From: an uncultured Bacteroidales bacterium
GTDB lineage: Bacteria; Bacteroidota; Bacteroidia; Bacteroidales; BM520
Reading direction: 5' to 3'
Assembly: GCA_964474455.1 (NCBI GenBank)
Contig: CAYYSU010000005.1
Span: 13,390-77,389, forward strand
Length of the DNA stretch: 64,000 bases
Part shown: positions 53,728 through 63,861 of the stretch, piece by piece
Layout: every line of letters starts with the position of its first letter
Position numbering within the stretch: the first letter of the stretch is position 1
Translations under genes and position numbers: made by a program
Notes under the pieces: generated by a model
Told to the model about the DNA's origin: nothing
Seen by the model: only the letters and a program-made list of their open reading frames with translations
Databases searched by the model: none

Positions 53728-54858
53728 GTGAATAAACTTAAGAATAGTATTTGTATAATAATCCTGATGTCTATTTCGGTGTGTTTTTCTTATGGCTATT
53801 CCCAGTCGGGGTGGTTGGAGAAAATTCCTGACAATTACTATCTTGAGGTTCGTACCGGATATGGCTTTATTGTTCCGCATCATCTGGAGCTGTATGAACT
53901 GCAAACCCATTTTATGAGCACCGAAGTATCGTTGGGGTATCTCTCTTTTGGAAAACAGAAATGGGAGTACGTATATGATTTCCCCCGGGTGGGTATCTCT
54001 TTTTGGTATTCCGATTTTAACAACTCTAATATAATAGGTAAGGCCTATGCCTTGCATCCTTATATCTGCTTCCCTTGGTATGGAACTCCGAATTCACGAT
54101 TGGTATTTCGCCTCGGCGTTGGTGTCGGTTATCTTACAAAACCATATCACCCTATAATGAATTATAAAAATATTGCTATTGGATCCCATATTAATGCTGC
54201 TATCAATCTAAAACTTGAATACCACCATAAAGTTAATGAAAGACTTATCGTGAATGGGGGGGTTGATTTCCAGCATTTTAGCAACGGGTCTTTCAAAACT
54301 CCTAACTTTGGACTTAACAGTCCGTCGGTGAGTTTGGGGCTTATGTATCATCCATTACTGCCTAACCGTTTCAACAGGCAAAAAGTCTTGCCGGAGCTTT
54401 ATATGCATGAGTTCGACGGGAAGAAATTTGCATATACGGCGTTTACATATTATATGGGACTTAAAGATCAGTCGTTTTCCGACAAAGACCGTCTGTTGGC
54501 AACAGCTGTTAGTGCAGAGATTATGAAACCGATGAACTTTAAGCACAGTCTGGGTGTTGGTGTTGATGTTGCACACTATACGCCACTGGGAGGAAATCTT
54601 CAGGATAACCATGTCACCAAATACGGAATTTGTGGAGCATGGCACATGAAACTATGGGTTGTCTCTTTTGACTTTGCTGTTGGCGTAGAGCTTTTTAAAC
54701 CAAACGACATTCTTCTTGGTTCTATGTACGAGAAGGCTGCGTTTAAATATCATTTTGAAAATGGTATGTACAGTTATTTTGGCCTGAAGGCTCTTTACGG
54801 GCGTGCCGATTTTATTGCGTTTGGGATGGGATATGATTTAAAAATGATCTATTACTAA
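53728..54858 (+). CDS. Outer-membrane beta-barrel protein, acyloxyacyl hydrolase (PagL-like lipid A deacylase) family candidate
   Basis: A GTG start gives a plausible signal peptide (MNKLKNSICIIILMSISVCFS). GYGFIVPHH...KWEYVYDFPRVGISFWYSDFNN resembles Bacteroidota acyloxyacyl hydrolase-family proteins. Family assignment is from memory only. Confidence 0.5.
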   Translation: MNKLKNSICIIILMSISVCFSYGYSQSGWLEKIPDNYYLEVRTGYGFIVPHHLELYELQTHFMSTEVSLGYLSFGKQKWEYVYDFPRVGISFWYSDFNNSNIIGKAYALHPYICFPWYGTPNSRLVFRLGVGVGYLTKPYHPIMNYKNIAIGSHINAAINLKLEYHHKVNERLIVNGGVDFQHFSNGSFKTPNFGLNSPSVSLGLMYHPLLPNRFNRQKVLPELYMHEFDGKKFAYTAFTYYMGLKDQSFSDKDRLLATAVSAEIMKPMNFKHSLGVGVDVAHYTPLGGNLQDNHVTKYGICGAWHMKLWVVSFDFAVGVELFKPNDILLGSMYEKAAFKYHFENGMYSYFGLKALYGRADFIAFGMGYDLKMIYY

Positions 54859-55595
54859 TGATTAAATATCAGCACATAATAGTTTTTTTCATTGCTTTTC
54901 TCCTTACAGGATGTGAAAAGCCGCCCCAGGCTTTTAAACCTGCAGGAAGGATTGAAAAGCAGGTACGTTCTGTTATTCCCGAAGGAAAGATCTTCCTGAC
55001 CGATGATGTTGATTTGGTTTTTTGTGATTCTGTCCCTGTTGATGAGGTGTGGGTGGTGGCAGGAAAATATCTTCTCGACTGGGTTGTAGTAGAAAAACAA
55101 AATGACAGCTTATTTATTGGAAATGATAATAGTGCCAACTGGCTTCGTAGCTATAATAAACGCCCGATGGTAAAGGTTAATCCCTCAATGTACCATCACC
55201 TTGAATATGATGCTGCAGGACATGTTATATGCCAAAGCACTGTTATGGGAGATTTATTCACTGTTTATGTTAATGGGGGCGGAGGAACAATTAATTTGAA
55301 TGTAAACGTGTCGAAGTTAAATATTTCTAACAATGCAGGAACTGTTGATATTCATGTTGAAGGTTACTCTGCTCTCACCTATTTATATGGTTGTTCTCAT
55401 GGGCCTATATTCTGTAATGATTTAAAATCACTTCAGGTGTATATGACAAATAGTGGATTTAATGATATTCACAGCAGGGCTGAAAAAGTGTTTGTGGGTC
55501 GAATAAACAGTGGTGGTAACGTATATATATACGGCGATCCGGAGACGACTGATATAGCCTGCTCCGGATCGGGGCATTTTATTGAAGTTAAATAA
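54858..55595 (+). CDS. Lipoprotein with DUF2807/head-GIN-like beta-helix domain
   Basis: Lipobox FLLTGC. C-terminal repetitive strands: GGGGTINLNVNVSKLNISNNAGTVDIHVEG ... GGNVYIYGDPETTDIACSGSGHFIEV. The start overlaps the upstream stop (TAATG). Confidence 0.5.
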   Translation: MIKYQHIIVFFIAFLLTGCEKPPQAFKPAGRIEKQVRSVIPEGKIFLTDDVDLVFCDSVPVDEVWVVAGKYLLDWVVVEKQNDSLFIGNDNSANWLRSYNKRPMVKVNPSMYHHLEYDAAGHVICQSTVMGDLFTVYVNGGGGTINLNVNVSKLNISNNAGTVDIHVEGYSALTYLYGCSHGPIFCNDLKSLQVYMTNSGFNDIHSRAEKVFVGRINSGGNVYIYGDPETTDIACSGSGHFIEVK

Positions 55596-55601
55596 TAATC
55601 T

Positions 55602-57077
55602 TTAATAAGATAATGCAAAAACAACGCGCTGTTTGGAAGGATTTCCTGAATAGATACATTTTCCCTCTTCCCTCTCACCATCAAAAGGTATCAGGCGAAT
55701 AGTAGCCTTTGTCTCTTCTTTGATTTTTTGTTCGGTCTCAGCAGTTCCATCCCAATGTGCAAGGATAAAACCTTTTTCATTTTCAAGAATATCTTTGAAT
55801 TCGTCCCATGTGTCAGCTTTTCTTATATTCGCAGCTCTGTAATCAAATGCCTTTTGATAAAGATTTTTCTGGATATCCTCAAGTAGTTGTTCTATATGCT
55901 CTTGAATACCTTCAATTGGTATAATTTTTTTCTCAAGCGTGTCACGGCGGGCTATTTCAATAGTACCATTTTCCATGTCACGTGGACCCATGGCTAGCCT
56001 TACTGGAACACCTTTGAATTCGTATTCATTGAATTTCCATCCCGGCTTATAGGTGTCGCGGTCATCATATTTTACTGATATACCCTTAGCCTTCAGTGCT
56101 TCTATTACAGGTTTTAGTTTTCCTGATATTGCCTCAAGCTGCTCTTCTTTTTTGTATATGGGAATTATGGCAACCTGAATAGGAGCGAGGTTTGGCGGTA
56201 ACACCAAACCGTTATCATCAGAGTGAGTCATGATAAGAGCACCCATAAGACGTGTCGAGACGCCCCATGATGTGGACCATACATAGGTTAGTTTATTCTC
56301 TTTACTCAGATACTGAACGTCGAATGCTTTTGCGAAATTCTGACCCAGGAAGTGTGATGTACCGGCTTGCAGAGCTTTGCCATCCTGCATTAATGCTTCT
56401 ATACAATATGTTTCAAGAGCACCAGCAAATCTTTCGTTAGGTGATTTTACGCCTTTTAATACCGGCATCGCCATAAAGTTTTCCGCAAATTTACCGTAAA
56501 CATTCATCATCTGAATTGTTTCATCTATCGCTTCCTGCTCGGTAGCATGGGCCGTGTGGCCTTCTTGCCATAAAAACTCTGTTGTGCGCAGAAAAATCCT
56601 TGTTCTCATCTCCCAACGAACAACATTAGCCCACTGGTTAACTAATATTGGAAGATCTCGGTACGACTGTATCCAATTCTTGTAGGTGTCCCAGATGATT
56701 GTTTCTGATGTAGGACGAACAATAAGCTCTTCCTCAAGTTTTGCATCCTCATCAACGATAATACCCTTTCCATCAGGGTCGTTTTTCAGTCTGTAATGAG
56801 TAACTACAGCACACTCTTTAGCGAATCCTTCTACATGGCTGGCTTCGCGGCTGAAGAATGATTTGGGTATAAACAGAGGGAAGTATGCATTGCTGTGACC
56901 GGTATCCTTGAACATCTTATCAAGATTAGCCTGCATCTTTTCCCATATTGCATATCCGTATGGTTTGATAACCATACATCCGCGAACTGCCGAATTCTCA
57001 GCCAGATCGGCCTTTACCACTAACTCATTGTACCATTGAGAGTAGTTTTCTTCCCGTGTTGTAAAATTTTTCGCCAT
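55602..57077 (-). CDS. proS: Proline--tRNA ligase (archaeal/eukaryote-like class II type)
   Basis: [16 protein letters not shown]...[42 protein letters not shown]. About 490 aa with a C-terminal ProRS-C domain ending in Tyr. Confidence 0.95.
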
Positions 57078-57181
57078 TTTCTATTTGTGGTATAGTATTT
57101 GTTTCTTTTCGCATGATTTAAACCTTGCAAAAGTAAATAATAATTTGACAATAATCAGTATAGCGATAACATTCAACTCAT

Positions 57182-57187
57182 AGGAGG
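57182..57187 (+). promoter_or_regulatory. Canonical Shine-Dalgarno sequence AGGAGG, 7 nt before the ATG at 57195
   Basis: Read directly: ...CATAGGAGGACATATTATG. None of the roughly dozen other start regions I inspected in this window has a comparable purine-rich SD. Confidence 0.6.
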
Positions 57188-57194
57188 ACATATT

Positions 57195-58985
57195 ATGAAA
57201 AATCTGGCACTTATCTTGACACTCATCTCAGCTCTGGCGTTAACAGGCTGCTCTACAGGCTCCTACACAACTGCCGGATATTATGACGACATCTACTATT
57301 CCGGTCCTAAAGAAACTGTTACTACTAATGATTACATATCAGAGTATCAGTACCCTTCAACGGAAGAACCAGCTGAATATATCCCCCAAACAGAAGAAGG
57401 AATTTCCCCCGCTCCCGCATATTCTTCAACAGAAACAATGACTGATGATGGTAATACCTACATCACCAACAATAATTATTATGGAGATGGCTATGAATAT
57501 GATGATTATTACGATTATGAATACTCTTCACGTATCCGTCGTTTCCATAAATCTTATCATTTTAATAGTTATTATAATGATTATTATACCAATATGTATT
57601 ATTATAACTATGATCCTTTCTATTGGGGAACAAGCATTTATTACGGCTATCCTTACAGCGGCTTTTCAATAAGTTACGGCTATCCTTATTACAGCTATTA
57701 TCGTCCATATCGATACAGTTACTACGGCTATGGTTGGTATAACCCATTCTATTACAGACCATATTACTCATCCTATTCACATGGTTATCATAATGGTTTC
57801 TGGGATGGTTACTGGTATGGATACAATGATGGTCATTATTACAACAATCATAATTCCTGGAATGATCCTTACCAATCATCAAATAATTATTATGGACAGC
57901 GTCGTGGCCGTGGTGGTAGCGATGGAACAGTAAGCAACCCCGCAGGTGTTGGCTCCAGCTCATCAAGAGTTAATGCAGCCACAGGTGGTACTTCAGGTAT
58001 CAGCTCTTCCGCTGAAGGAAAGGTTACTCCTACACCAACAGTATCAGGTCGTGTATCTGCTGCTACCGGTAACGGTCAGACCTCTGCAGACACTCCTTCT
58101 GTGCGTGCAAATAATGGAACAACTTATACTCCCGGAACTACTCCTCGCAGTGGTGCGGAACGTAATAATGGTGTAAATGCTGTCAACACAATTCCAGGAC
58201 GTAGCGGTATTAACAGTGGTACATCATCAACAGGAAGTGTATCCCGTGATAATAATACAACACGTATCACTCCCGGTGCATCAGGAACATCAGTAAAAGA
58301 AACCAATACTCCTCGTACAGGTGCTGTCAATGTTAATACTAACAAACCTTCAGCAACAAATACGAACCGTATAAAACCGGCATCGAATTATACTCGTCCA
58401 CAGACTACAACTCGCACCCAGGTGAATCCAGGAAATGCTGCTCGCACAAATCCAGCTGCTAATCAGCGTTATAGCAAACCCAGCAGTTATGAAAACCGCG
58501 GTTCAGCAACGCCAAAGTCATACGAATCTCCTACATATAACAGACCCAAGTCGAGCAACGATTATTCAAGGCCTAACACACGTACTACAACTCCATCAAG
58601 TCAAAATAGAAATAGTACAGCTAGTCCTTCAAGTAGCTCTAACACTTCACGCTCGAACAAGACTTACAGTACGCCTTCAAGGAGTAACAATAACACACGT
58701 ACCTACAGCTCGCCAGCACGCAGTAATAGAAGCAGTAATCGTACCTACAGCACACCTTCACGAAGTAACAACTCGTCAACGAGAAGCAGTAATGTAAGGT
58801 CTTCTACTCCTAGTCGTCCTTCTTCGAGCTCAAGCAGAAGCATCAGCTCACCATCAAGTAGTAGCAGCCGCAGCTTTAGTTCTCCTTCCAGTAGTAGCTC
58901 TTCTTCACGAAGCAGCTCCACTACCAGAAGTAGTAGCTCCAGCTCCAGAAGTTCTTCATCACGTTCTTCAGGTGGTAGAAAATAA
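57195..58985 (+). CDS. Low-complexity lipoprotein: Tyr/Gly/Asn-rich domain plus long Ser/Thr/Asn/Arg-rich tail
   Basis: Lipobox ALALTGC. Residues 92-241 contain 48 Tyr by hand count. The remaining 350 aa or so have almost no hydrophobic residues and end in ...SSSSRSSSSRSSGGRK. The reading frame stays open for 596 codons despite the low complexity. Confidence 0.7.
   Translation: MKNLALILTLISALALTGCSTGSYTTAGYYDDIYYSGPKETVTTNDYISEYQYPSTEEPAEYIPQTEEGISPAPAYSSTETMTDDGNTYITNNNYYGDGYEYDDYYDYEYSSRIRRFHKSYHFNSYYNDYYTNMYYYNYDPFYWGTSIYYGYPYSGFSISYGYPYYSYYRPYRYSYYGYGWYNPFYYRPYYSSYSHGYHNGFWDGYWYGYNDGHYYNNHNSWNDPYQSSNNYYGQRRGRGGSDGTVSNPAGVGSSSSRVNAATGGTSGISSSAEGKVTPTPTVSGRVSAATGNGQTSADTPSVRANNGTTYTPGTTPRSGAERNNGVNAVNTIPGRSGINSGTSSTGSVSRDNNTTRITPGASGTSVKETNTPRTGAVNVNTNKPSATNTNRIKPASNYTRPQTTTRTQVNPGNAARTNPAANQRYSKPSSYENRGSATPKSYESPTYNRPKSSNDYSRPNTRTTTPSSQNRNSTASPSSSSNTSRSNKTYSTPSRSNNNTRTYSSPARSNRSSNRTYSTPSRSNNSSTRSSNVRSSTPSRPSSSSSRSISSPSSSSSRSFSSPSSSSSSSRSSSTTRSSSSSSRSSSSRSSGGRK
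58650..58790 (+). repeat. Imperfect tandem coding repeats (unit approx. R-T-Y-S-[TS]-P-[SA]-R-S-N-x-x-x-x)
   Basis: KTYSTPSRSNNN / RTYSSPARSNRSSN / RTYSTPSRSNNSS. At DNA level CGTACCTACAGC recurs. Confidence 0.5.
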
Positions 58986-59023
58986 GATTTTGATTAACAG
59001 AATTTAAACTCAATTATATTATC

Positions 59024-60487
59024 ATGAAAAAGCTGTTTTTATTAACCGCAATACTCTTGGCATTTGGGATGTTAGTGCAAGCACAGACTGCCGAAGACGC
59101 TCTCAGATACTCAAATCTTACTTTCGGTGGTACAGCCAGAAGTGTTTCCATGGGTGGAGCCTTTGGTGCCCTTGGTGCTGACTTCTCAACCCTTTCAACC
59201 AACCCGGCAGGTATTGGCGTATATAAGAAATCTATTATGAGCGTTACTCCTTCGGTTTATGCCGGAGAGACTACCTCCAGTTATCAAGGAGTGGAATCGT
59301 ACGATAATAAGTACAATTTTAACTTGGGCAATGCCGGGTTCGTAATTGTTGGTAATACCAGAGAGAGATCTGTATTTAAAAACTTCCAGTTTGGATTCGG
59401 TGTGAATAGAACTAATAACTTCAATAACCGCTTGATGGTGGAAGGTTTCAACACCGGAAATTCTATCCGCACCATGTGGACAGATTATGCAAACTCTGAA
59501 GGGTCGCTTAATCCATTTGATACTGAAATAGCATTTAACAGTGGCGCAATATTCTATGACACCATAACAGAGCAATATCTAAATGATGTTACGCGTAACG
59601 GCCTGGAAGAGGGTTATGTTCATCAGCGGAAAAACGTTGTTACAAAAGGCTCCATGAATGAACTTGTATTCTCAGGAGGAACAAATATTAACGATGTATT
59701 ATACCTTGGGGCAACAATAGGGCTACCTTATCTAAACTATACATACCATTCCATATTTATTGAAAGCGACGCCCGCGACAGTATTCCATATTTTTCTTCC
59801 CTGAAGTACACTGAACGTTTATCTACTTCCGGTTCCGGTTTTAACTTTAAGTTAGGTTTTATCCTTAAACCTGTGTACTGGCTCCGTATTGGTGGTGCTG
59901 TTCATACCCCTACATTCTTCAATGATATGTATGATGAGTGGTCTTCTGAAATTGAAACACGATTTGATAATAATCAGAACGAAGTAAGTGATGGTAATGC
60001 TTCTTCTCCTGATGGATATTTTAACTACGCATTGGAAACTCCAATGAAACTTCTTGGTAGTGTGGCCGTTGTGGTAGGGAAAGTGGGAATTATAAGTGCG
60101 GAATATGAATATTCTGATTACTCAAAGGCTAAATTCCGTAGTGATGAAGATGATTTCTATAATGTGAATAATACAATTACCAACAGTTATAGCCAAGGCC
60201 ATAACCTGAAATTCGGTACCGAGTGGATGGTTGCTCCAATGTTGAAAGTTAGAGGTGGTTATACTTTATACAGCTCTCCATATAAAGATGCTGTTAATGA
60301 GGGTGGTGTACGGCAGTCAGTATCATTTGGTGGCGGTATCCGCGATAAGAATTTCTTCGTTGACCTTGGCTTCGTGCATAGTTTTGCTGATCAGGATTAT
60401 TACATGTACAGCAGTGAGTATATGTTACCTGCTCAAAACACATATATCTCCAATCAGGTTTTAATGACATTAGGATTTCGTTTCTAG
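59024..60487 (+). CDS. FadL/OMPP1/TodX-like outer-membrane beta-barrel protein
   Basis: Signal peptide (LVQAQT). N-terminal AEDALRYSNLTFGGTARSVSMGGAFGALGADFSTLSTNPAGIG resembles the hatch region of FadL-family proteins. C-terminal ...LGFRF ends in Phe. Confidence 0.6.
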   Translation: MKKLFLLTAILLAFGMLVQAQTAEDALRYSNLTFGGTARSVSMGGAFGALGADFSTLSTNPAGIGVYKKSIMSVTPSVYAGETTSSYQGVESYDNKYNFNLGNAGFVIVGNTRERSVFKNFQFGFGVNRTNNFNNRLMVEGFNTGNSIRTMWTDYANSEGSLNPFDTEIAFNSGAIFYDTITEQYLNDVTRNGLEEGYVHQRKNVVTKGSMNELVFSGGTNINDVLYLGATIGLPYLNYTYHSIFIESDARDSIPYFSSLKYTERLSTSGSGFNFKLGFILKPVYWLRIGGAVHTPTFFNDMYDEWSSEIETRFDNNQNEVSDGNASSPDGYFNYALETPMKLLGSVAVVVGKVGIISAEYEYSDYSKAKFRSDEDDFYNVNNTITNSYSQGHNLKFGTEWMVAPMLKVRGGYTLYSSPYKDAVNEGGVRQSVSFGGGIRDKNFFVDLGFVHSFADQDYYMYSSEYMLPAQNTYISNQVLMTLGFRF

Positions 60488-60504
60488 TGTAACTATTAAA
60501 AACG

Positions 60505-60545
60505 AAAAAACGCCGGAATGATTATTCATTGCCGGCGTTTTTTGT
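60505..60545. terminator. Bidirectional Rho-independent terminator
   Basis: AACGCCGGAATGA...TCATTGCCGGCGTT long stem, flanked by A6 on the left and T6 on the right. Serves both convergent genes. Confidence 0.8.
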
Positions 60546-60559
60546 TTGTATCTGTTCAG

Positions 60560-61393
60560 TTAATCACTAACAATTTTATCTACAGATTCTGCAATATCAT
60601 CATCAATAAGTATACGTCCACAATATTCGCAAACTATAATTTTCTTATGGATACGGATATCTAGTTGGCGTTGAGGTGGAATTTTGTTGAAGCAACCACC
60701 ACATGCATCACGTTCTACTTTAACAACAGCAAGTCCGTTACGGGCATTCTTGCGTATTCTTTTATATGCCAACAGGAGACGATCTTCGATGAATTTTTGT
60801 TGTTCGACAGATGTCTTTTCGAGAAACTGTTCTTCTTTTTTAGTTTCTGCCACTATCGTGTCGAGTTCACTTTTTTTCACCTCGAGGTCTTTTTGCAGTT
60901 CTATGAGTATACCTTTAGCCTTTTCAACCTCTTCATCTTTGAGCTTGATGGCGACAGTATATTCCTTAATTCTTTTCTCCGAGAGCTCAATTTCGAGCGC
61001 CTGAAATTCTATTTCCTTCGACAGAGAGTCGTATTCACGGTTGTTACGCACATTCATCTGCTGCTCTTCATATTTTTTAATCATAGTTTGAGCTTCGCTG
61101 ATGGTGTTTTTCTTTTCTGTGATTTGATCTTTCAGGCTGTTATTTTCGTCATTATAGTTTGAGATACGAGTCTCAAGACCGATAATTTCGTCTTCCAGAT
61201 CCTGAACTTCAAGTGGTAATTCACCGCGAACTATTCTAATTCTATCGATTTTAGAATCGATTTTTTGAAGGCTATACAGGGCAATGAGTTTCTGCTCAAT
61301 GGTTACTTCTGCTTCATTGATTTTTGCTTTCGCAGGAGCTGTATTCTGTTGTTCTACACTTTCCGGTGCCTTCTGTTCATTTTTTTTTGCCAT
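60560..61393 (-). CDS. Coiled-coil protein with C-terminal C4 zinc ribbon (COG1579/zf-RING_7 type)
   Basis: Long Glu/Lys coiled-coil. C-terminal CGGCFNKIPPQ...VCEYCGRIL. Classical partner of the Nif3-like gene immediately upstream. Confidence 0.78.
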   Translation of the reverse strand: MAKKNEQKAPESVEQQNTAPAKAKINEAEVTIEQKLIALYSLQKIDSKIDRIRIVRGELPLEVQDLEDEIIGLETRISNYNDENNSLKDQITEKKNTISEAQTMIKKYEEQQMNVRNNREYDSLSKEIEFQALEIELSEKRIKEYTVAIKLKDEEVEKAKGILIELQKDLEVKKSELDTIVAETKKEEQFLEKTSVEQQKFIEDRLLLAYKRIRKNARNGLAVVKVERDACGGCFNKIPPQRQLDIRIHKKIIVCEYCGRILIDDDIAESVDKIVSD

Positions 61394-61417
61394 GTCAGAA
61401 TGTGTTATATATCTGTT

Positions 61418-62512
61418 TTACAAGTACTTAATGGGATTCGTATTTATTTTTGAAATAGAGAGTGCAAAGGTAGGAATTTTTTCTTTAAGAACCTCAAACA
61501 GAAGTTCTTTAGTATACTGTTCACTTTCATAATGTCCTATGTCGGCTACTATCATTTGTTTTTTTGCGTTGAAGTATTCGTGGTATTTAATGTCTCCGGT
61601 AAGGAATATATCAGCATTTGCTCTACGTGCGTTTCTCATTAAGAAGGATCCGGCACCACCGCACAGGGCAACTTTTTTCACCTTTCTTTTAATATCTCCA
61701 GTGTATTTTATGCACGGTAAACTAAGTTTTTCTTTAATCGTATTAAAGAATTCTTCAACTTGGGTTTCTTTTTCTAGTTCTCCGATCATCCCTGATCCTA
61801 CTCCGGGATGCCTGTTTTCCAACGAGAATAAATCATATGCAACCTCTTGGTAAGGGTGCGCTAAAACAAGTGCTCGAACTATTTTTTTTGTGAGGTGTGA
61901 AGGGAACAATGTTTCGATACGAATCTCTTTTTCAGTGTGAAGACGCCCCGGCTCTCCGATGTATGGGGTTGTGTTTTTCCCAGCTCTGAAAGTACCTTCT
62001 CCTACACTGTTAAACGAGCAATTGTCGTAATTGCCAATATTCCCCGCCCCGGCATTGAACAGTGCTACACGAATAACCTCTGCTTGTGCTTCGGGGACAA
62101 ATGTCACCAGTTTGGTGAGTTCGCCATTACCGGGAGCAAGTATTTCAACATTTAATATACCCAGGACATCACATAATTTGCTGTTTACTCCACCCATAAC
62201 ATTATCCAGATTGGTATGAATAGCATAAATGGTAATGTCATTTTTTATTGCTTTGATAAGTGGGTCAGAGACTGCATTGCCCGGTATAATTTTTTTTAAC
62301 CCGTGGAAGATTAATGGGTGGTGTGCAATGATGAGATTTGCATTGATTTCTATAGCTTCATCAACGATAGCATCAGTAACATCAAGTGTCATCAGAGCAC
62401 CAGTGCATTCTGCATTGTATGTTCCTGTGATAATGCCTGCATTATCATACTCTTCCTGGTATGCCAGAGGTGCCACACTCTCCAATATTTTAAATATATC
62501 TGCGTGTTTCAT
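61418..62512 (-). CDS. Nif3-like dinuclear metal center protein (YbgI/GTP cyclohydrolase 1 type 2 family) with PII-like insert
   Basis: LIIAHHPLIF, YAIHTNLD, ...TGDIKYHE motifs. 364 aa. Confidence 0.85.
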   Translation of the reverse strand: MKHADIFKILESVAPLAYQEEYDNAGIITGTYNAECTGALMTLDVTDAIVDEAIEINANLIIAHHPLIFHGLKKIIPGNAVSDPLIKAIKNDITIYAIHTNLDNVMGGVNSKLCDVLGILNVEILAPGNGELTKLVTFVPEAQAEVIRVALFNAGAGNIGNYDNCSFNSVGEGTFRAGKNTTPYIGEPGRLHTEKEIRIETLFPSHLTKKIVRALVLAHPYQEVAYDLFSLENRHPGVGSGMIGELEKETQVEEFFNTIKEKLSLPCIKYTGDIKRKVKKVALCGGAGSFLMRNARRANADIFLTGDIKYHEYFNAKKQMIVADIGHYESEQYTKELLFEVLKEKIPTFALSISKINTNPIKYL

Positions 62513-62802: not shown

Positions 62803-63861
62803 ATGGGAACATTGCTACGTGTACTTGCATTTCCTTTGGCTTTGTGTTACGGATTAGCAGTTCGTATACGCAACAGATGTTTTGATTTGGGTTTTTTTTG
62901 TAAATCCATAAGCTATCCTATCCCTGTTATTTCTATTGGTAATCTTTCTGCAGGAGGCACTGGTAAAACACCTCATATTGAATATCTTATCCGTTTTTTA
63001 AAAAATGATTATAGCGTTGCTACTCTGAGTCGTGGTTACGGTCGTACAACACGCGGATACCGACTTGCCGGCGAGGGTGATAATTCGGCTACCATCGGCG
63101 ATGAGCCCATGCAATATCTCTATAAGTTTAAAAATCTTTTGGTTTCCGTATCAGAATCACGCCGTAAAGGTATAGAGAAACTTATGACTCTACCACATCG
63201 CCCTGATGTTATTCTTATGGACGACGGTTACCAGCATCGTTGGGTGAAGCCTGGATTGTCAATCCTTTTGACAGATTTTCATAAATTGTATATTGAGGAT
63301 CATCTGTTGCCTACGGGAACATTGCGGGAGCATGCTGCAGGAGCTGGCAGAGCTGATATTATCATAGTAACGAAATCCGGTAAAGTGCTCTCCCCGATTA
63401 CACGCCGCAATATCACCGAAAAATTGCTTCTGAAGCCACACCAAAAACTCTTTTTCTCACACATTACATATGAAGAATTATCTCCACTTCCGGGAATCGA
63501 TTGTCCTCCTCCGGCAGAATTCTACTCTTCATTGTTGGTGTTTTCCGGAATAGTGAATACTTATCCTTTTAAATTTTATCTAAAAAGATATTGTAGAGAG
63601 ATGGAATCTGTTGACTTCCCTGATCACTACAGTTATAAACAAAAGGATATCCAAAAAATTAAGGCGCAGTTTGAAGATATATTTACCAAGAGAAAGGCTC
63701 TTGTTACAACAGAAAAGGATGCCATGCGCCTGCAGCATCCTTCAATACTCTCACTTTTAAAAGGTATGCCCGTATATTATTTACCTATTAGAGTAGCTTT
63801 TCATAATAGTGACGGGGAGAAATTTAATAAAGAGGTAGAGGATTGTATTTCCCGATATTAG
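62803..63861 (+). CDS. lpxK: Tetraacyldisaccharide 4'-kinase
   Basis: P-loop SIGNLSAGGTGKTP, SRGYGR, ILMDDGYQH. Confidence 0.9.
   Translation: MGTLLRVLAFPLALCYGLAVRIRNRCFDLGFFCKSISYPIPVISIGNLSAGGTGKTPHIEYLIRFLKNDYSVATLSRGYGRTTRGYRLAGEGDNSATIGDEPMQYLYKFKNLLVSVSESRRKGIEKLMTLPHRPDVILMDDGYQHRWVKPGLSILLTDFHKLYIEDHLLPTGTLREHAAGAGRADIIIVTKSGKVLSPITRRNITEKLLLKPHQKLFFSHITYEELSPLPGIDCPPPAEFYSSLLVFSGIVNTYPFKFYLKRYCREMESVDFPDHYSYKQKDIQKIKAQFEDIFTKRKALVTTEKDAMRLQHPSILSLLKGMPVYYLPIRVAFHNSDGEKFNKEVEDCISRY

What the first reader, a model, noticed from the sequence alone, without database searches (positions are those of the whole stretch)
57195..60487. Extreme low-complexity lipoprotein (prion-like Tyr/Gly/Asn domain plus RS-like Ser/Arg tail) in an apparent operon with a FadL-like barrel
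Seen in sequence: a lipobox (ALALTGC) is followed by an acidic Thr/Glu/Pro linker. Next comes a 150-residue block (nt 57468..57917) with 48 Tyr by my count, in runs such as YGYPYYSYYRPYRYSYYGYGWYNPFYYRPYY and GFWDGYWYGYNDGHYY. The block ends in a GQRRGRGG stretch. A tail of about 350 residues follows, made almost only of Ser, Thr, Asn, Arg, Pro and Gly. It contains three imperfect RTYS(T/S)P(S/A)RSN repeats and ends in poly-Ser/Arg (…SSSSRSFSSPSSSSSSSRSSSTTRSSSSSSRSSSSRSSGGRK). The frame stays open for 596 codons, while the other frames and the opposite strand are broken into much shorter ORFs of 134 aa or less. That argues the ORF is real.

A FadL/TodX-like barrel gene starts 38 nt downstream on the same strand, and the pair is closed by a strong bidirectional terminator.

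Established knowledge: Tyr/Gly/Asn-rich segments drive amyloid or condensate formation in eukaryotic prion-like domains, and Ser/Arg tails bind polyanions.

Inference: this may be a membrane-tethered, intrinsically disordered surface or periplasmic matrix protein (adhesive, condensate-forming, or binding polyanions such as eDNA or polyphosphate), whose export or anchoring uses the dedicated barrel. I know of no described bacterial system of this kind, but low-complexity ORFs are also frequent annotation orphans.
Basis: partly seen in the sequence, partly recalled or inferred. Interest (0 to 1): 0.55.

Follow-up and report, generated by a model that had tools for sequence, protein, structure and literature searches.

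The report
Tyrosine-rich disordered lipoprotein with FadL-like barrel
This is a real gene pair, conserved across the phylum Bacteroidota and never characterised: a mostly disordered outer-membrane lipoprotein (acidic linker, block of about 30% tyrosine, long arginine/serine tail) is always encoded just upstream of its own FadL-type membrane barrel, and what the pair does in the cell envelope is unknown.

Summary

The ORF is not an orphan. A profile of its N-terminal half finds 3258 cluster representatives, 1746 of them at E≤1e-10. None has a Pfam or NCBIfam model, and all are annotated "hypothetical". In 79 related genome loci, 76 have the barrel directly downstream on the same strand (the 3 exceptions are contig ends), and 75 have proS divergently upstream.

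The family shares one plan:
- a signal peptide, usually with a lipobox and never with the acidic surface-export signal;
- an acidic linker;
- a conserved core, DDYYDYxYSSRIRRFH…WGTSIY;
- a neutral Tyr/Gly/Trp/Asn block;
- a polycationic Ser/Thr/Asn/Pro tail carrying repeated Y-x-x-P motifs;
- a dibasic C-terminus.

AlphaFold predicts disorder for the lipoprotein. The barrel has the FadL fold, with a highly conserved N-terminal extension and an NPA-containing hatch. It is not an orthologue of BamG or PorV.

In Flavobacterium johnsoniae the syntenic trio is Fjoh_4939–4941. Both membrane proteins were detected in outer-membrane fractions and rose on TamL depletion, and the authors noted this only in passing.

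Function is unknown. My best guess (about 0.3) is a barrel-docked, periplasm-facing cohesive or tethering polymer involved in envelope homeostasis.

The parts
55602..57077 (-). proS (prolyl-tRNA synthetase), transcribed divergently; a conserved neighbour of the pair
   Evidence: ORF; Pfam tRNA-synt_2b/HGTP_anticodon/ProRS-C_1 on the identical gene in L001; found divergently upstream in 75 of 79 related loci.
57183..57188 (+). AGGAGG ribosome-binding-like site 6 nt before the ATG
   Evidence: Read directly from the sequence.
57195..58985 (+). CDS of the 596-aa Tyr-rich disordered lipoprotein
   Evidence: The frame is conserved in 77 relatives of 334-647 aa. The gene was called as 596 aa in four independent assemblies.
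57195..57251 (+). Signal peptide with lipobox LALTG-C19; the next six residues (STGSYT) have no acidic residue, so there is no lipoprotein export signal
   Evidence: 70 of 77 family members have a lipobox and 0 of those 70 have at least 2 acidic residues in the six after the Cys.
57252..57449 (+). Acidic Thr/Glu/Pro/Tyr linker, including the conserved YDD(I/V)YYS motif (aa 29-36, nt 57279-57302)
   Evidence: The N-linker is net negative in all 77 members (mean -12), and [DE]D[VIL]Y lies near the N-terminus in 64 of 77. D32 and Y34 are conserved.
57450..57650 (+). Conserved core: GNTYITNN hairpin, the DDYYDYEYSSRIRRFH helix, then YYNDYYTNMYYYNYDPFYWGTSIYYGY
   Evidence: Invariant D104 D107 R113 R116 F117 Y126 Y131 Y135 Y137 P141 G145. 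87% identical to relatives whose tails are about 50% identical. These are the only AF2 secondary-structure elements after the signal-peptide helix, E80-92 and H102-117. I infer that this is the barrel-docking region.
57468..57917 (+). Tyr/Gly/Asn/Trp/Pro-rich block (48 Tyr in 150 aa), ending in YYGQRRGRGG
   Evidence: The family-wide block is about 130 aa, 19-35% Tyr and close to neutral in charge. AF2 pLDDT is about 40.
57918..58982 (+). Polycationic Ser/Thr/Asn/Pro/Gly/Arg tail of 355 aa with eight Y-x-x-P motifs (three of them inside decapeptides at nt 58659-58769) and a GGRK C-terminus
   Evidence: Family tails are net +3 to +54 (mean +24), 63% STNQPG and 7% hydrophobic, and end in RR/RK/KR/SR/PR. 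475 of 785 tail Tyr residues lie in Y-x-x-P against 69 expected.
58986..59023 (+). 38-nt intergenic spacer with no terminator, so the two genes are probably co-transcribed (inference)
   Evidence: The median spacer in 59 related loci is 53 nt.
59024..60487 (+). CDS of the 487-aa, 14-stranded FadL-fold outer-membrane barrel
   Evidence: AF2 pLDDT 80 with 14 strands. Top Foldseek PDB hits are BtBamG, FjBamG, EcFadL, PgBamG, TodX and TbuX, E 6e-17 to 1e-12. Homologues often hit PF03349.
59084..59233 (+). Mature N-terminus of the barrel: conserved extension QTAEDALRYSNLTFG plus the hatch, with the N60-P61-A62 motif at nt 59201-59209
   Evidence: These are the most conserved segments of the barrel (0.67 and 0.75, against 0.25-0.5 for loops and turns) across 72 paired barrels. 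The invariant residues are listed.
60500..60547 (.). Bidirectional intrinsic terminator between the barrel gene and the convergent Zn-ribbon gene
   Evidence: dG -25.1 kcal/mol, z = -6.2, A-run upstream and U-run downstream.

Best explanation
Shown. The two genes form a conserved outer-membrane module that I found only in genomes assigned to Bacteroidota, apart from two oddly assigned bins. The upstream gene encodes an exported and mostly disordered protein, which is usually lipidated. It has a fixed block plan: an acidic linker of about 90 aa, a conserved aromatic core of about 60 aa, a neutral Tyr/Gly/Trp/Asn block, a polycationic Ser/Thr/Asn/Pro/Arg tail of about 300 aa with repeated Y-x-x-P motifs, and a dibasic C-terminus. 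The downstream gene encodes a distinct FadL-superfamily barrel. The barrel's most conserved parts are an extended N-terminus and an NPA-containing hatch.

Inferred mechanism. The lipoprotein sits on the periplasmic face of the outer membrane. Its conserved post-Cys segment and core dock onto the barrel, much as BamH docks onto the FadL-like BamG. This would also hold the minority of members that lack a lipid anchor. The Tyr block and the Arg-rich tail extend into the periplasm as a multivalent 'sticker' polymer, using Tyr-Arg cation-pi contacts, aromatic-sugar stacking and charge. This polymer would self-associate and/or bind an anionic or glycan envelope polymer, with peptidoglycan the obvious candidate. 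The result would be a cohesive or tethering layer under the outer membrane that contributes to envelope homeostasis.

The identity and architecture of the module are well supported (about 0.9). The mechanism is a low-confidence inference.
For: Gene reality and family size:
- at least 437 species genomes carry a relative;
- 882 clusters at 90% identity match the profile;
- 3258 representatives match, always at the N-terminus.

Linkage:
- the barrel is directly downstream in 76 of 79 loci and proS is upstream in 75 of 79, while other neighbours recur in only 2-26 of 79;
- starting from four barrel homologues, all four loci carried the lipoprotein upstream;
- the median spacer is 53 nt.

Architecture:
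- the charge blocks are conserved in all 77 members and the tail is hydrophobic-poor;
- Y-x-x-P is enriched 7-fold in the tails;
- AF2 predicts disorder apart from a hairpin and a helix in the core.

Periplasmic face:
- 0 of 70 lipobox members carry the acidic export signal (rule);
- Fjoh_4940 is listed among outer-membrane lipoproteins lacking that signal, and was detected in outer-membrane fractions.

Docking precedent:
- BamG binds the N-terminus and lipid anchor of BamH, and the BamG2-BamH2 pair is encoded in an operon;
- in this barrel, as in BamG, the N-terminal extension is conserved and the loops are not;
- 7 of 77 members have a plain signal peptide instead of a lipobox and so need another means of attachment.

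Link to envelope homeostasis:
- Fjoh_4941 rose 5.6-fold and Fjoh_4940 rose 2.6-fold in outer-membrane fractions on TamL depletion.

The idea that Tyr and Arg act as 'stickers' comes from established knowledge of FUS-family proteins and is an analogy only.
Against: No experiment or complex model shows that the two proteins touch. My attempt at a fused-chain complex model failed at the alignment stage. The barrel's strongly conserved hatch and NPA motif are what a working FadL-type channel would keep, which favours a transport role. No peptidoglycan-binding or carbohydrate-binding domain is detectable. Bacteroidota already have OmpA-like and Pal-like tethers. The absence of the export signal predicts topology but does not prove it. 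The rise on TamL depletion may be part of a general rise in outer-membrane lipoproteins, which the authors also report. The homology of Fjoh_4940 to this family rests on synteny only.
Confidence: 0.3

Rival explanations
1. Transport module. The barrel is a working FadL-type channel for a hydrophobic molecule, such as fatty acids or another lipid, moving in or out. The lipoprotein is its obligatory periplasmic accessory, acting as an acceptor, a regulator or a tether.
For: The barrel has the FadL fold with 14 strands, and the AF2 secondary structure breaks in strand 3 where FadL has its kink. The hatch and the N-P-A motif are its most conserved parts; PDB entries for FadL N33A, P34A and delta-NPA mutants show this motif is a studied functional element. 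Many homologues hit PF03349. The F. johnsoniae counterpart is described as the FadL homologue and rises when the lipid-related TAM system is depleted.
Against: Canonical FadL, TodX and TbuX need no partner. A 550-aa disordered polyampholyte is an odd carrier for hydrophobic molecules. The mature N-terminus is about 7 residues longer than in E. coli FadL (using the NPA motif as register) and is conserved. In BamG that feature marks a non-transport, docking barrel. The window protein itself misses the Pfam threshold.
Confidence: 0.25
2. The protein is displayed on the cell surface as an adhesive or matrix polymer, possibly binding eDNA or polyphosphate, and the barrel exports or anchors it.
For: The composition resembles adhesive or cohesive proteins, such as mussel foot proteins and plant Gly/Tyr-rich wall proteins (recalled from memory, composition only). 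In this phylum FadL-like barrels do hold surface proteins, as in BamG-BamH and PorV with its cargo. The Bacteroidota BamA surface loop EL3 is also Tyr/Gly/Asn-rich. RcsF shows that a lipoprotein can be threaded through a barrel (established knowledge).
Against: There is no lipoprotein export signal in any of 70 lipobox members. There is no T9SS C-terminal domain. The barrel lumen is occupied by a conserved hatch. Fjoh_4940 was not reported among the vesicle proteins that changed, whereas the barrel was. Tight housekeeping-type conservation next to proS in anaerobic-digester, sediment, marine and freshwater lineages argues for a core envelope role rather than a niche adhesin.
Confidence: 0.15
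3. Accessory to outer-membrane protein or lipoprotein biogenesis. The module would be a BamG-like barrel with a Tyr/Gly/Asn-rich partner that works with BAM or TAM.
For: The best structural matches are the three BamG structures. The barrel has a BamG-like conserved N-terminal extension. BamA EL3 has the same unusual Tyr/Gly/Asn composition. The F. johnsoniae pair responds to TamL depletion.
Against: No PDB chain, including the BamG chains, is detected by phmmer or by the family profile (only TbuX at E=0.005). The partner is not BamH, since it has no PF14092 hit. Neither BAM paper's passages that I read report such a subunit. BamG scores are barely better than FadL scores.
Confidence: 0.1
4. 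Secreted functional amyloid or condensate, with the barrel as its dedicated secretion channel, like curli (CsgA/CsgG) or Fap (FapC/FapF).
For: The Tyr/Asn/Gly-rich low-complexity block sits next to a dedicated barrel gene.
Against: The block is rich in Pro and Gly and has no regular strand-loop-strand repeats. AF2 gives no beta-solenoid. There are no Pfam curlin or Fap hits. Most members are lipid-anchored. The FadL-type lumen is plugged.
Confidence: 0.05
5. Artefact: a non-coding or decaying low-complexity ORF.
For: There is no domain hit, and the exact sequence is absent from the clustered protein collection.
Against: The frame stays open for 334-647 codons in 77 genomes that span barrel identities of 28-69%. 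The core has invariant residues. Ser codons are diverse and there are no DNA repeats. The syntenic F. johnsoniae protein was detected by mass spectrometry.
Confidence: 0.01

Closest known systems
BamG-BamH, and the operon pair BamG2 (Bt1785)-BamH2 (Bt1786), of the Bacteroidota BAM complex (PMC12578637, PMC12611786)
   Same: A 14-stranded FadL-fold barrel in Bacteroidota is paired with a cognate lipoprotein. In the paralogue pair the two are encoded side by side. The barrel's N-terminal extension is highly conserved and its loops are not. BamG structures are the best Foldseek matches.
   Different: No sequence-level match to any PDB chain, including the BamG chains, was detected. The partner is not BamH: it has no PF14092 hit, is disordered rather than folded, and has no acidic export signal, whereas BamH is surface-exposed. 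No association with BamA is known.
FadL / TodX / TbuX hydrophobic-compound channels (PF03349)
   Same: The fold, the strand number, the N-terminal hatch with an N-P-A motif, and the likely kink in strand 3 all match. A weak profile hit to TbuX exists (E=0.005), and many homologues hit PF03349.
   Different: The window protein is below the Pfam threshold. Sequence identity to these structures is about 12%. Its N-terminus is longer. It has an obligatory, operon-encoded disordered partner, which canonical members lack.
PorV / PorQ (T9SS shuttle and attachment barrels, NF033709)
   Same: They are FadL-like Bacteroidota barrels that hold partner proteins. There are weak partial NCBIfam hits (34.5 bits, and 23.7 bits to PorV2).
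   Different: The scores are far below the cut-offs of 90 and 325 bits. The partner has no T9SS C-terminal domain.
Fjoh_4939 / Fjoh_4940 / Fjoh_4941 of Flavobacterium johnsoniae (PMC12045153)
   Same: The gene trio is identical in order: Pro-tRNA ligase, an SPII lipoprotein with no domain and no export signal, then an OMPP1/FadL/TodX barrel. Flavobacteriales members of the family show the same synteny.
   Different: I could not obtain the Fjoh_4940 sequence, so orthology rests on synteny. The paper offers only 'might indicate a functional link'.
FUS-type prion-like plus RGG/SR proteins, mussel foot proteins, and plant Gly/Tyr-rich or extensin wall proteins (from my own knowledge; composition analogy only)
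   Same: A Tyr/Gly/Asn-rich block is combined with an Arg-rich Ser/Gly/Pro tail. This is the 'sticker' grammar that drives cohesion, coacervation or cross-linking.
   Different: There is no homology. The compartment is the bacterial cell envelope. The protein is tethered by a lipid and/or a barrel. None of the biophysical properties has been tested.
RcsF with OmpA/OmpC/OmpF, and the curli and Fap systems (from my own knowledge)
   Same: Each pairs a disordered or low-complexity envelope protein functionally with an outer-membrane barrel.
   Different: There is no homology. Here the barrel is dedicated, encoded in the same operon and plugged by its own hatch.

Membership tests
FadL/OmpP1/TodX superfamily (barrel) | 14-stranded beta-barrel fold similar to solved FadL and TodX structures | tested here: met
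   The AF2 model has pLDDT 80 and 14 strands. Foldseek against EcFadL, PaFadL, TodX, TbuX and CymD gives E 1e-15 to 1e-12, with TM about 0.5-0.67 depending on normalisation.
FadL/OmpP1/TodX superfamily (barrel) | N-terminal hatch domain with a conserved N-P-A motif | tested here: met
   N60 and P61 are invariant and A62 is at least 90% conserved. The hatch segment is the most conserved part of the protein. Equating this motif with FadL N33-P34-A35 rests on my own knowledge plus the PDB entry titles.
FadL/OmpP1/TodX superfamily (barrel) | Kink in strand 3 giving a lateral opening | tested here: inconclusive
   The AF2 secondary structure breaks strand 3 at residues 133-134.
FadL/OmpP1/TodX superfamily (barrel) | Score above the Pfam PF03349 gathering threshold | tested here: not met
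   The window protein has no Pfam hit at E<=0.01. Roughly a quarter of the listed homologues carry a precomputed PF03349 hit.
BamG (Bacteroidota BAM subunit) | Sequence orthology to BtBamG, PgBamG or FjBamG | tested here: not met
   phmmer against PDB sequences gives no hit. The family profile hits only TbuX. Identity in the Foldseek alignments is 12-15%.
BamG (Bacteroidota BAM subunit) | Conserved extended N-terminus | tested here: met
   Residues 21-35 have conservation 0.67, with Q21, D25, A26, R28 and S30 at 90% or more. The N-terminus is about 7 residues longer than in FadL, using the NPA motif as register (inference).
BamG (Bacteroidota BAM subunit) | Partner lipoprotein is BamH (PF14092) and the complex contains BamA | tested here: not met
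   The partner has no Pfam hit. Association with BamA cannot be tested here.
PorV/PorQ family | NCBIfam NF033709 or NF052325 score above the cut-off | tested here: not met
   34.5 bits against a cut-off of 90, and 23.7 bits against 325.
Bacterial lipoprotein (SPII substrate) | Signal peptide followed by a lipobox Cys | tested here: met
   The lipobox is LALTG-C19. A lipobox is present in 70 of 77 relatives; the rest have plain signal peptides.
Bacteroidota surface-exposed lipoprotein | Lipoprotein export signal: at least 2 acidic residues in the six residues after the Cys (rule as quoted in PMC12578637) | tested here: not met
   The window sequence is STGSYT. None of 70 lipobox members meets the rule.
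T9SS cargo | C-terminal sorting domain (for example PF18962) | tested here: not met
   No Pfam hit for the window protein or for 38 relatives. The C-terminus is a Ser/Gly/Arg low-complexity tail.
Functional amyloid (curli CsgA, Fap FapC) | Imperfect strand-loop-strand repeats, family HMM hits and a beta-solenoid prediction | tested here: not met
   No Pfam hits. AF2 predicts coil with pLDDT about 40. No regular repeats were found.
Prion-like or phase-separating low-complexity protein | Experimental condensate or aggregate formation, or a PLAAC/IUPred score | not testable with these tools
   Only the composition and the AF2 disorder prediction are available.

The most novel reading that the evidence does not exclude
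Bacteroidota may build a previously unrecognised envelope structure: a cohesive, condensate-like or gel-like protein layer at the outer membrane. It would be made of a lipid-anchored and barrel-anchored block polyampholyte (acidic, then Tyr-rich, then Arg-rich) that self-associates through Tyr-Arg contacts and grips the cell wall. A dedicated FadL-derived barrel would act as its membrane organiser. This would be the first phase-separating scaffold known in a bacterial periplasm, and a functional replacement for Lpp-type tethers in this phylum.
Probability: 0.15. Interest if true: 0.85.

Novelty: new variant of a known kind. Interest (0 to 1): 0.62.

Why it matters
Bacteroidota dominate gut, oral, marine and wastewater communities. 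Their outer membrane has recently been shown to be built and organised differently from the proteobacterial model, with extra BAM subunits, FadL-like docking barrels and surface lipoproteins. This pair is one of the most tightly linked gene pairs I could trace across the phylum. It has thousands of sequence clusters and conserved synteny with proS across several orders. Yet the lipoprotein has no family model, no name and no assigned function. It has one of the most extreme compositions seen in a conserved bacterial protein.

If the pair proves to be a tether, a periplasmic organiser or a partner-dependent lipid channel, it would fill a gap in envelope biology for the phylum. It would also give a bacterial, genetically tractable example of Tyr/Arg 'sticker' chemistry. 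F. johnsoniae Fjoh_4940/4941 makes it directly testable.

Tried and rejected
- **Domain searches.** Pfam and NCBIfam searches on the lipoprotein gave nothing. A Pfam search on 38 relatives gave only isolated chance hits.
- **PDB sequence searches.** The lipoprotein profile found nothing meaningful. The barrel found no hit by phmmer, and its profile found only TbuX.
- **Homologue search with the lipoprotein N-terminus.** The word-index search found only 54 hits and missed even the self and 63%-identical proteins. The profile and exhaustive searches were needed.
- **Exact look-ups.** Look-ups of three lipoprotein sequences failed. A second look-up of 10 relatives gave no organism names.
- **Complex prediction.** I tried to fuse the lipoprotein N-terminus, a linker and the barrel into one chain. 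MAFFT placed the lipoprotein homologues onto the barrel half, so I abandoned this and spent the last structure job on the lipoprotein alone.
- **RNA elements.** An Rfam scan of 55.0-61.5 kb found only a sub-threshold hit on the terminator.
- **Promoter and terminator scan.** Promoter-like sites were no more frequent than in shuffles, and the scan missed the real terminator because of its bulged stem.
- **Literature.** Searches on tyrosine-rich, FadL and Bacteroidota terms, PorV2, and UniProt accessions found no study of this family. The only mention is the passing one in the TamL paper.
- **Readings rejected.** I rejected T9SS cargo, surface lipoprotein by the export-signal rule, curli/Fap-type amyloid, microsatellite artefact, and BamG or PorV orthology.

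Full report
**1. The observation**

- The ORF at 57195-58985 (+) is 596 codons long. The longest ORF in any other frame across it is 134 aa.
- The protein starts with a signal peptide and the lipobox LALTG-C19.
- Residues 20-95 are acidic (13 D+E against 2 K+R).
- Residues 92-241 contain exactly 48 Tyr in 150 residues and end in YYGQRRGRGG.
- The remaining roughly 355 residues are made almost only of Ser, Thr, Asn, Arg, Pro and Gly, and end in SSGGRK.
- The neighbouring genes have 5.1% Tyr and 6.1% Ser. Against that background, the Tyr block has P about 3e-25 and the Ser-rich end has P about 6e-44.
- The three decapeptides are KTYSTPSRSN, RTYSSPARSN and RTYSTPSRSN, at residues 489-525.
- An AGGAGG precedes the ATG.
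- The barrel ORF at 59024-60487 starts 38 nt after the stop codon.
- The hairpin at 60500-60547 folds at -25.1 kcal/mol (z = -6.2) and is flanked by an A-run and a U-run, between convergent genes.

The low complexity is a property of the protein, not of the DNA. All six Ser codons are used, TRF finds only three marginal short arrays, and the ORF differs by 0-1 nt in four independent metagenome assemblies.

**2. It is a large conserved family, not an orphan**

Starting from the barrel, four homologues at 46-69% identity all had the same arrangement. proS lies on the opposite strand, followed by a 520-600-aa ORF with no Pfam hit, followed by the barrel. In one of these loci (L009) the upstream ORF is split in two. 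The upstream proteins are clearly homologous to the window protein.

Alignment A1 shows the following invariant positions: D104, D107, R113, R116, F117, Y126, Y131, Y135, Y137, P141, G145, G205 and R236. The core consensus is DDYYDYxYSSRIRRFH..GYYDxYYTNxYWYxYDPxxWGTSIY.

The size of the family is shown by three searches.

Almost all are Bacteroidota: Bacteroidales, Lentimicrobiaceae, Draconibacterium, Flavobacteriales including Acidiluteibacter, and a Chryseobacterium bin.
- A profile search found 882 clusters at 90% identity. All are named 'hypothetical' and none carries a Pfam domain.
- The exhaustive HMM search found 3258 representatives at E≤1e-3, 1746 at E≤1e-10 and 535 at E≤1e-30. The match is always at the N-terminus of proteins 240-660 aa long.

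No Pfam family matches any of 38 members, and no NCBIfam model matches the window protein.

**3. Linkage**

| Gene in the 79 lipoprotein-centred loci | Loci where found |
|---|---|
| Barrel, directly downstream on the same strand | 76 (the other 3 loci end before it) |
| proS, divergently upstream | 75 |
| Zn-ribbon | 26 |
| DUF2807 | 13 |
| PagL-like | 11 |
| NIF3 | 5 |
| LpxK | 2 |

The lipoprotein-barrel spacer has a median of 53 nt and a range of 3-259 nt. The conserved unit is therefore proS <> lipoprotein > barrel. The last two genes are spaced like an operon, and they share one terminator in the window.

**4. Anatomy of the lipoprotein family (77 members)**

- 70 members have a lipobox. 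The other 7 have a plain signal peptide, typically cleaved as AQ|DD.
- None of the 70 lipobox members has two acidic residues in the six after the Cys. That is the rule used for surface lipoproteins in this phylum (quoted). Instead, the post-Cys hexapeptide is itself conserved, often as TTQYQA.
- A [DE]D[VIL]Y motif follows in 64 of 77 members.
- The N-terminal linker has a median length of 90 aa and is net negative in every member, with a mean of -12.
- The core plus Tyr block is about 130 aa, 19-35% Tyr, about 62% Tyr/Trp/Phe/Gly/Asn, and close to neutral in charge.
- The tail is about 300 aa and is net positive in every member (+3 to +54, mean +24). It is 63% Ser/Thr/Asn/Gln/Pro/Gly and only 7% hydrophobic. 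It ends in RR (40 of 77), or in RK, KR, SR, PR or GR in most of the rest.
- The tail is not featureless. Of 785 tail Tyr residues, 475 lie in a Y-x-x-P context against 69 expected. The local consensus is roughly (S/T)-Y-(S/T)-x-P-(S)-(R/S)-S. The window has eight such motifs.
- Identity to close relatives is 87% in the core, about 68% in the Tyr block and about 50% in the tail.
- AlphaFold2 with 38 sequences gives pLDDT 51 and pTM 0.18. After the signal-peptide helix, it predicts only a hairpin (residues 80-92) and a helix (residues 102-117, the DDYYDY…RIRRFH segment).

The protein is thus a block polyampholyte that is predicted to be disordered, with one short conserved region that may fold on binding.

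**5. The barrel**

- It has no Pfam hit of its own, and only sub-threshold NCBIfam hits to PorV/PorQ.
- More than 3600 homologues were found. Some carry PF03349, and some are named OmpP1/FadL family transporter.
- The AF2 model (pLDDT 80) has 14 strands, short periplasmic turns and one long helical extracellular loop.
- The top Foldseek hits against the PDB are B. thetaiotaomicron BamG (E = 6e-17), F. johnsoniae BamG, E. coli FadL, P. gingivalis BamG, TodX and TbuX. All align at 10-15% identity.
- At the sequence level it matches no PDB chain by phmmer, and its family profile reaches only TbuX at E = 0.005. It is therefore a separate clade of the FadL superfamily, not a BamG orthologue.
- Across 72 barrels taken from the paired loci, the most conserved segments are the mature N-terminal 15 residues (0.67) and the hatch (0.75). 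The hatch includes an N60-P61-A62 motif that corresponds to the studied NPA motif of FadL. Loops and turns score 0.25-0.5.

In published BamG structures, a conserved N-terminal extension protrudes through the lateral opening, and the barrel binds the N-terminus and lipid anchor of the lipoprotein BamH. A paralogous BamG2-BamH2 pair is encoded in an operon. A FadL-like barrel with a cognate lipoprotein is therefore an established theme in Bacteroidota. This pair is a new version of it, with a very different partner.

**6. Literature**

I found no study of this family. The one relevant passage is in the TamL paper on F. johnsoniae (PMC12045153).

- Fjoh_4939 is Pro-tRNA ligase.
- Fjoh_4940 is an SPII lipoprotein lacking the export signal, with no domain and 'function unknown'.
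- Fjoh_4941 is an OMPP1/FadL/TodX barrel.
- Both membrane proteins were detected in outer-membrane fractions, at about 46 and 19 peptides. They rose 2.6-fold and 5.6-fold on TamL depletion.
- The barrel, but not the lipoprotein, was among the vesicle proteins that changed.
- The authors say only that the proximity 'might indicate a functional link'.

The trio is the same as in the window and in the Flavobacteriales loci. I therefore take it to be the orthologous module, with a probability of about 0.85. I could not obtain the Fjoh_4940 sequence to verify this.

**7. How it probably works**

Shown: an exported protein that is usually lipid-anchored and predicted to be disordered, with a conserved block plan, is co-inherited with a dedicated FadL-fold barrel.

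Inferred:

- The lipoprotein faces the periplasm. It has no export signal, and the F. johnsoniae protein is classified the same way.
- Its conserved N-terminal segments dock on the barrel. Three things point this way: the BamG-BamH precedent, the existence of members without a lipid anchor, and the conservation pattern of the barrel.
- The Tyr block and Arg-rich tail act as a multivalent cohesive or binding polymer in the envelope.

I place about 0.3 on a tethering or scaffolding role in envelope homeostasis. I place about 0.25 on the module being a genuine FadL-type channel with an obligatory accessory, because the conserved hatch and NPA motif argue for gating. The other readings get about 0.15 for surface display as an adhesive or matrix protein, about 0.1 for a BAM/TAM-linked biogenesis accessory, and about 0.05 for a secreted amyloid. 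The remaining probability is for something not yet imagined. None of these readings can be decided with sequence tools alone.

**8. Novelty and verdict**

It is a family conserved across the phylum with no existing family model, and it has an extreme and rule-governed composition. It is locked to its own FadL-derived barrel. The closest known kind is the BamG-BamH type of barrel-lipoprotein pair. I rate this as a new variant of that kind, with an appreciable chance that the function is of a new kind. Interest is 0.62.

Noticed in passing
window 55602-57194, and loci L012-L090: proS is divergently adjacent to the lipoprotein gene in 75 of 79 loci, with an intergenic region of only 40-253 nt (median 126). 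This linkage is as tight as the lipoprotein-barrel linkage and spans several orders. It may reflect a shared bidirectional promoter or co-regulation with Pro-tRNA charging. I have no explanation for it.
   Followed up: partly
lipoprotein family tails (window 57918-58982 and the 77 relatives): The Bacteroidota O-glycosylation sequon D-[ST]-[AILVMT] is strongly depleted despite about 30% Ser+Thr. Across the proteins, 20 sequons are observed against 71±8.5 expected from within-block shuffles. In the tails the figures are 1 observed against 33 expected. This could mean selection to stay unglycosylated, or simply that Asp is locked into (S/N)(D/E)Y contexts. The sequences are related, so the statistic is inflated.
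   Followed up: partly
literature, PMC12578637: Extracellular loop 3 of Bacteroidota BamA is also a disordered Tyr/Gly/Asn-rich segment (13 Tyr in 38 residues in B. thetaiotaomicron) of unknown function. Its composition is the same as the Tyr block here. A shared partner or shared chemistry is conceivable.
   Followed up: no
window 53728-55595: A 376-aa PagL-like (lipid A 3-O-deacylase-like) barrel and a 245-aa DUF2807 lipoprotein are encoded with overlapping stop and start codons (ATGA at 54858), just beyond proS. This pair recurs in only 11-13 of 79 related loci.
   Followed up: partly
window 60560-62512 (-): A Zn-ribbon/coiled-coil protein (CdsZ-like, PF02591) and a NIF3/YbgI-family protein lie convergent to the barrel gene, followed by LpxK at 62803-63861. 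The Zn-ribbon gene is a neighbour in 26 of 79 loci.
   Followed up: partly
L009 3083-4979: In one relative the lipoprotein gene is split into overlapping ORFs of 334 and 315 aa. This is a frameshift inside the tail, either an assembly error or a pseudogene. Its tail carries six near-perfect APTQYNRTTPS repeats.
   Followed up: no
L048 (JACSSC010000034.1) and P0208: One locus is binned as Candidatus Competibacteraceae (Gammaproteobacteria) and one protein as Burkholderiales. Both carry the Bacteroidota-type proS-lipoprotein-barrel trio or family protein, so these are probably binning errors rather than transfer.
   Followed up: no
protein collection look-ups: The 596-aa protein is a called gene on four contigs of the collection. 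Yet the exact-sequence look-up says it is not in the collection, and the word-index search with its N-terminus did not return it or its 63%-identical relative. Extreme low-complexity proteins seem to be under-represented in, or poorly indexed by, that resource. This may be one reason why the family has gone unnoticed.
   Followed up: no
P0232: One family member is annotated by JGI as 'Ni/Co efflux regulator RcnB'. No Pfam RcnB hit was seen among the 38 members scanned, so this is probably a compositional mis-annotation.
   Followed up: partly
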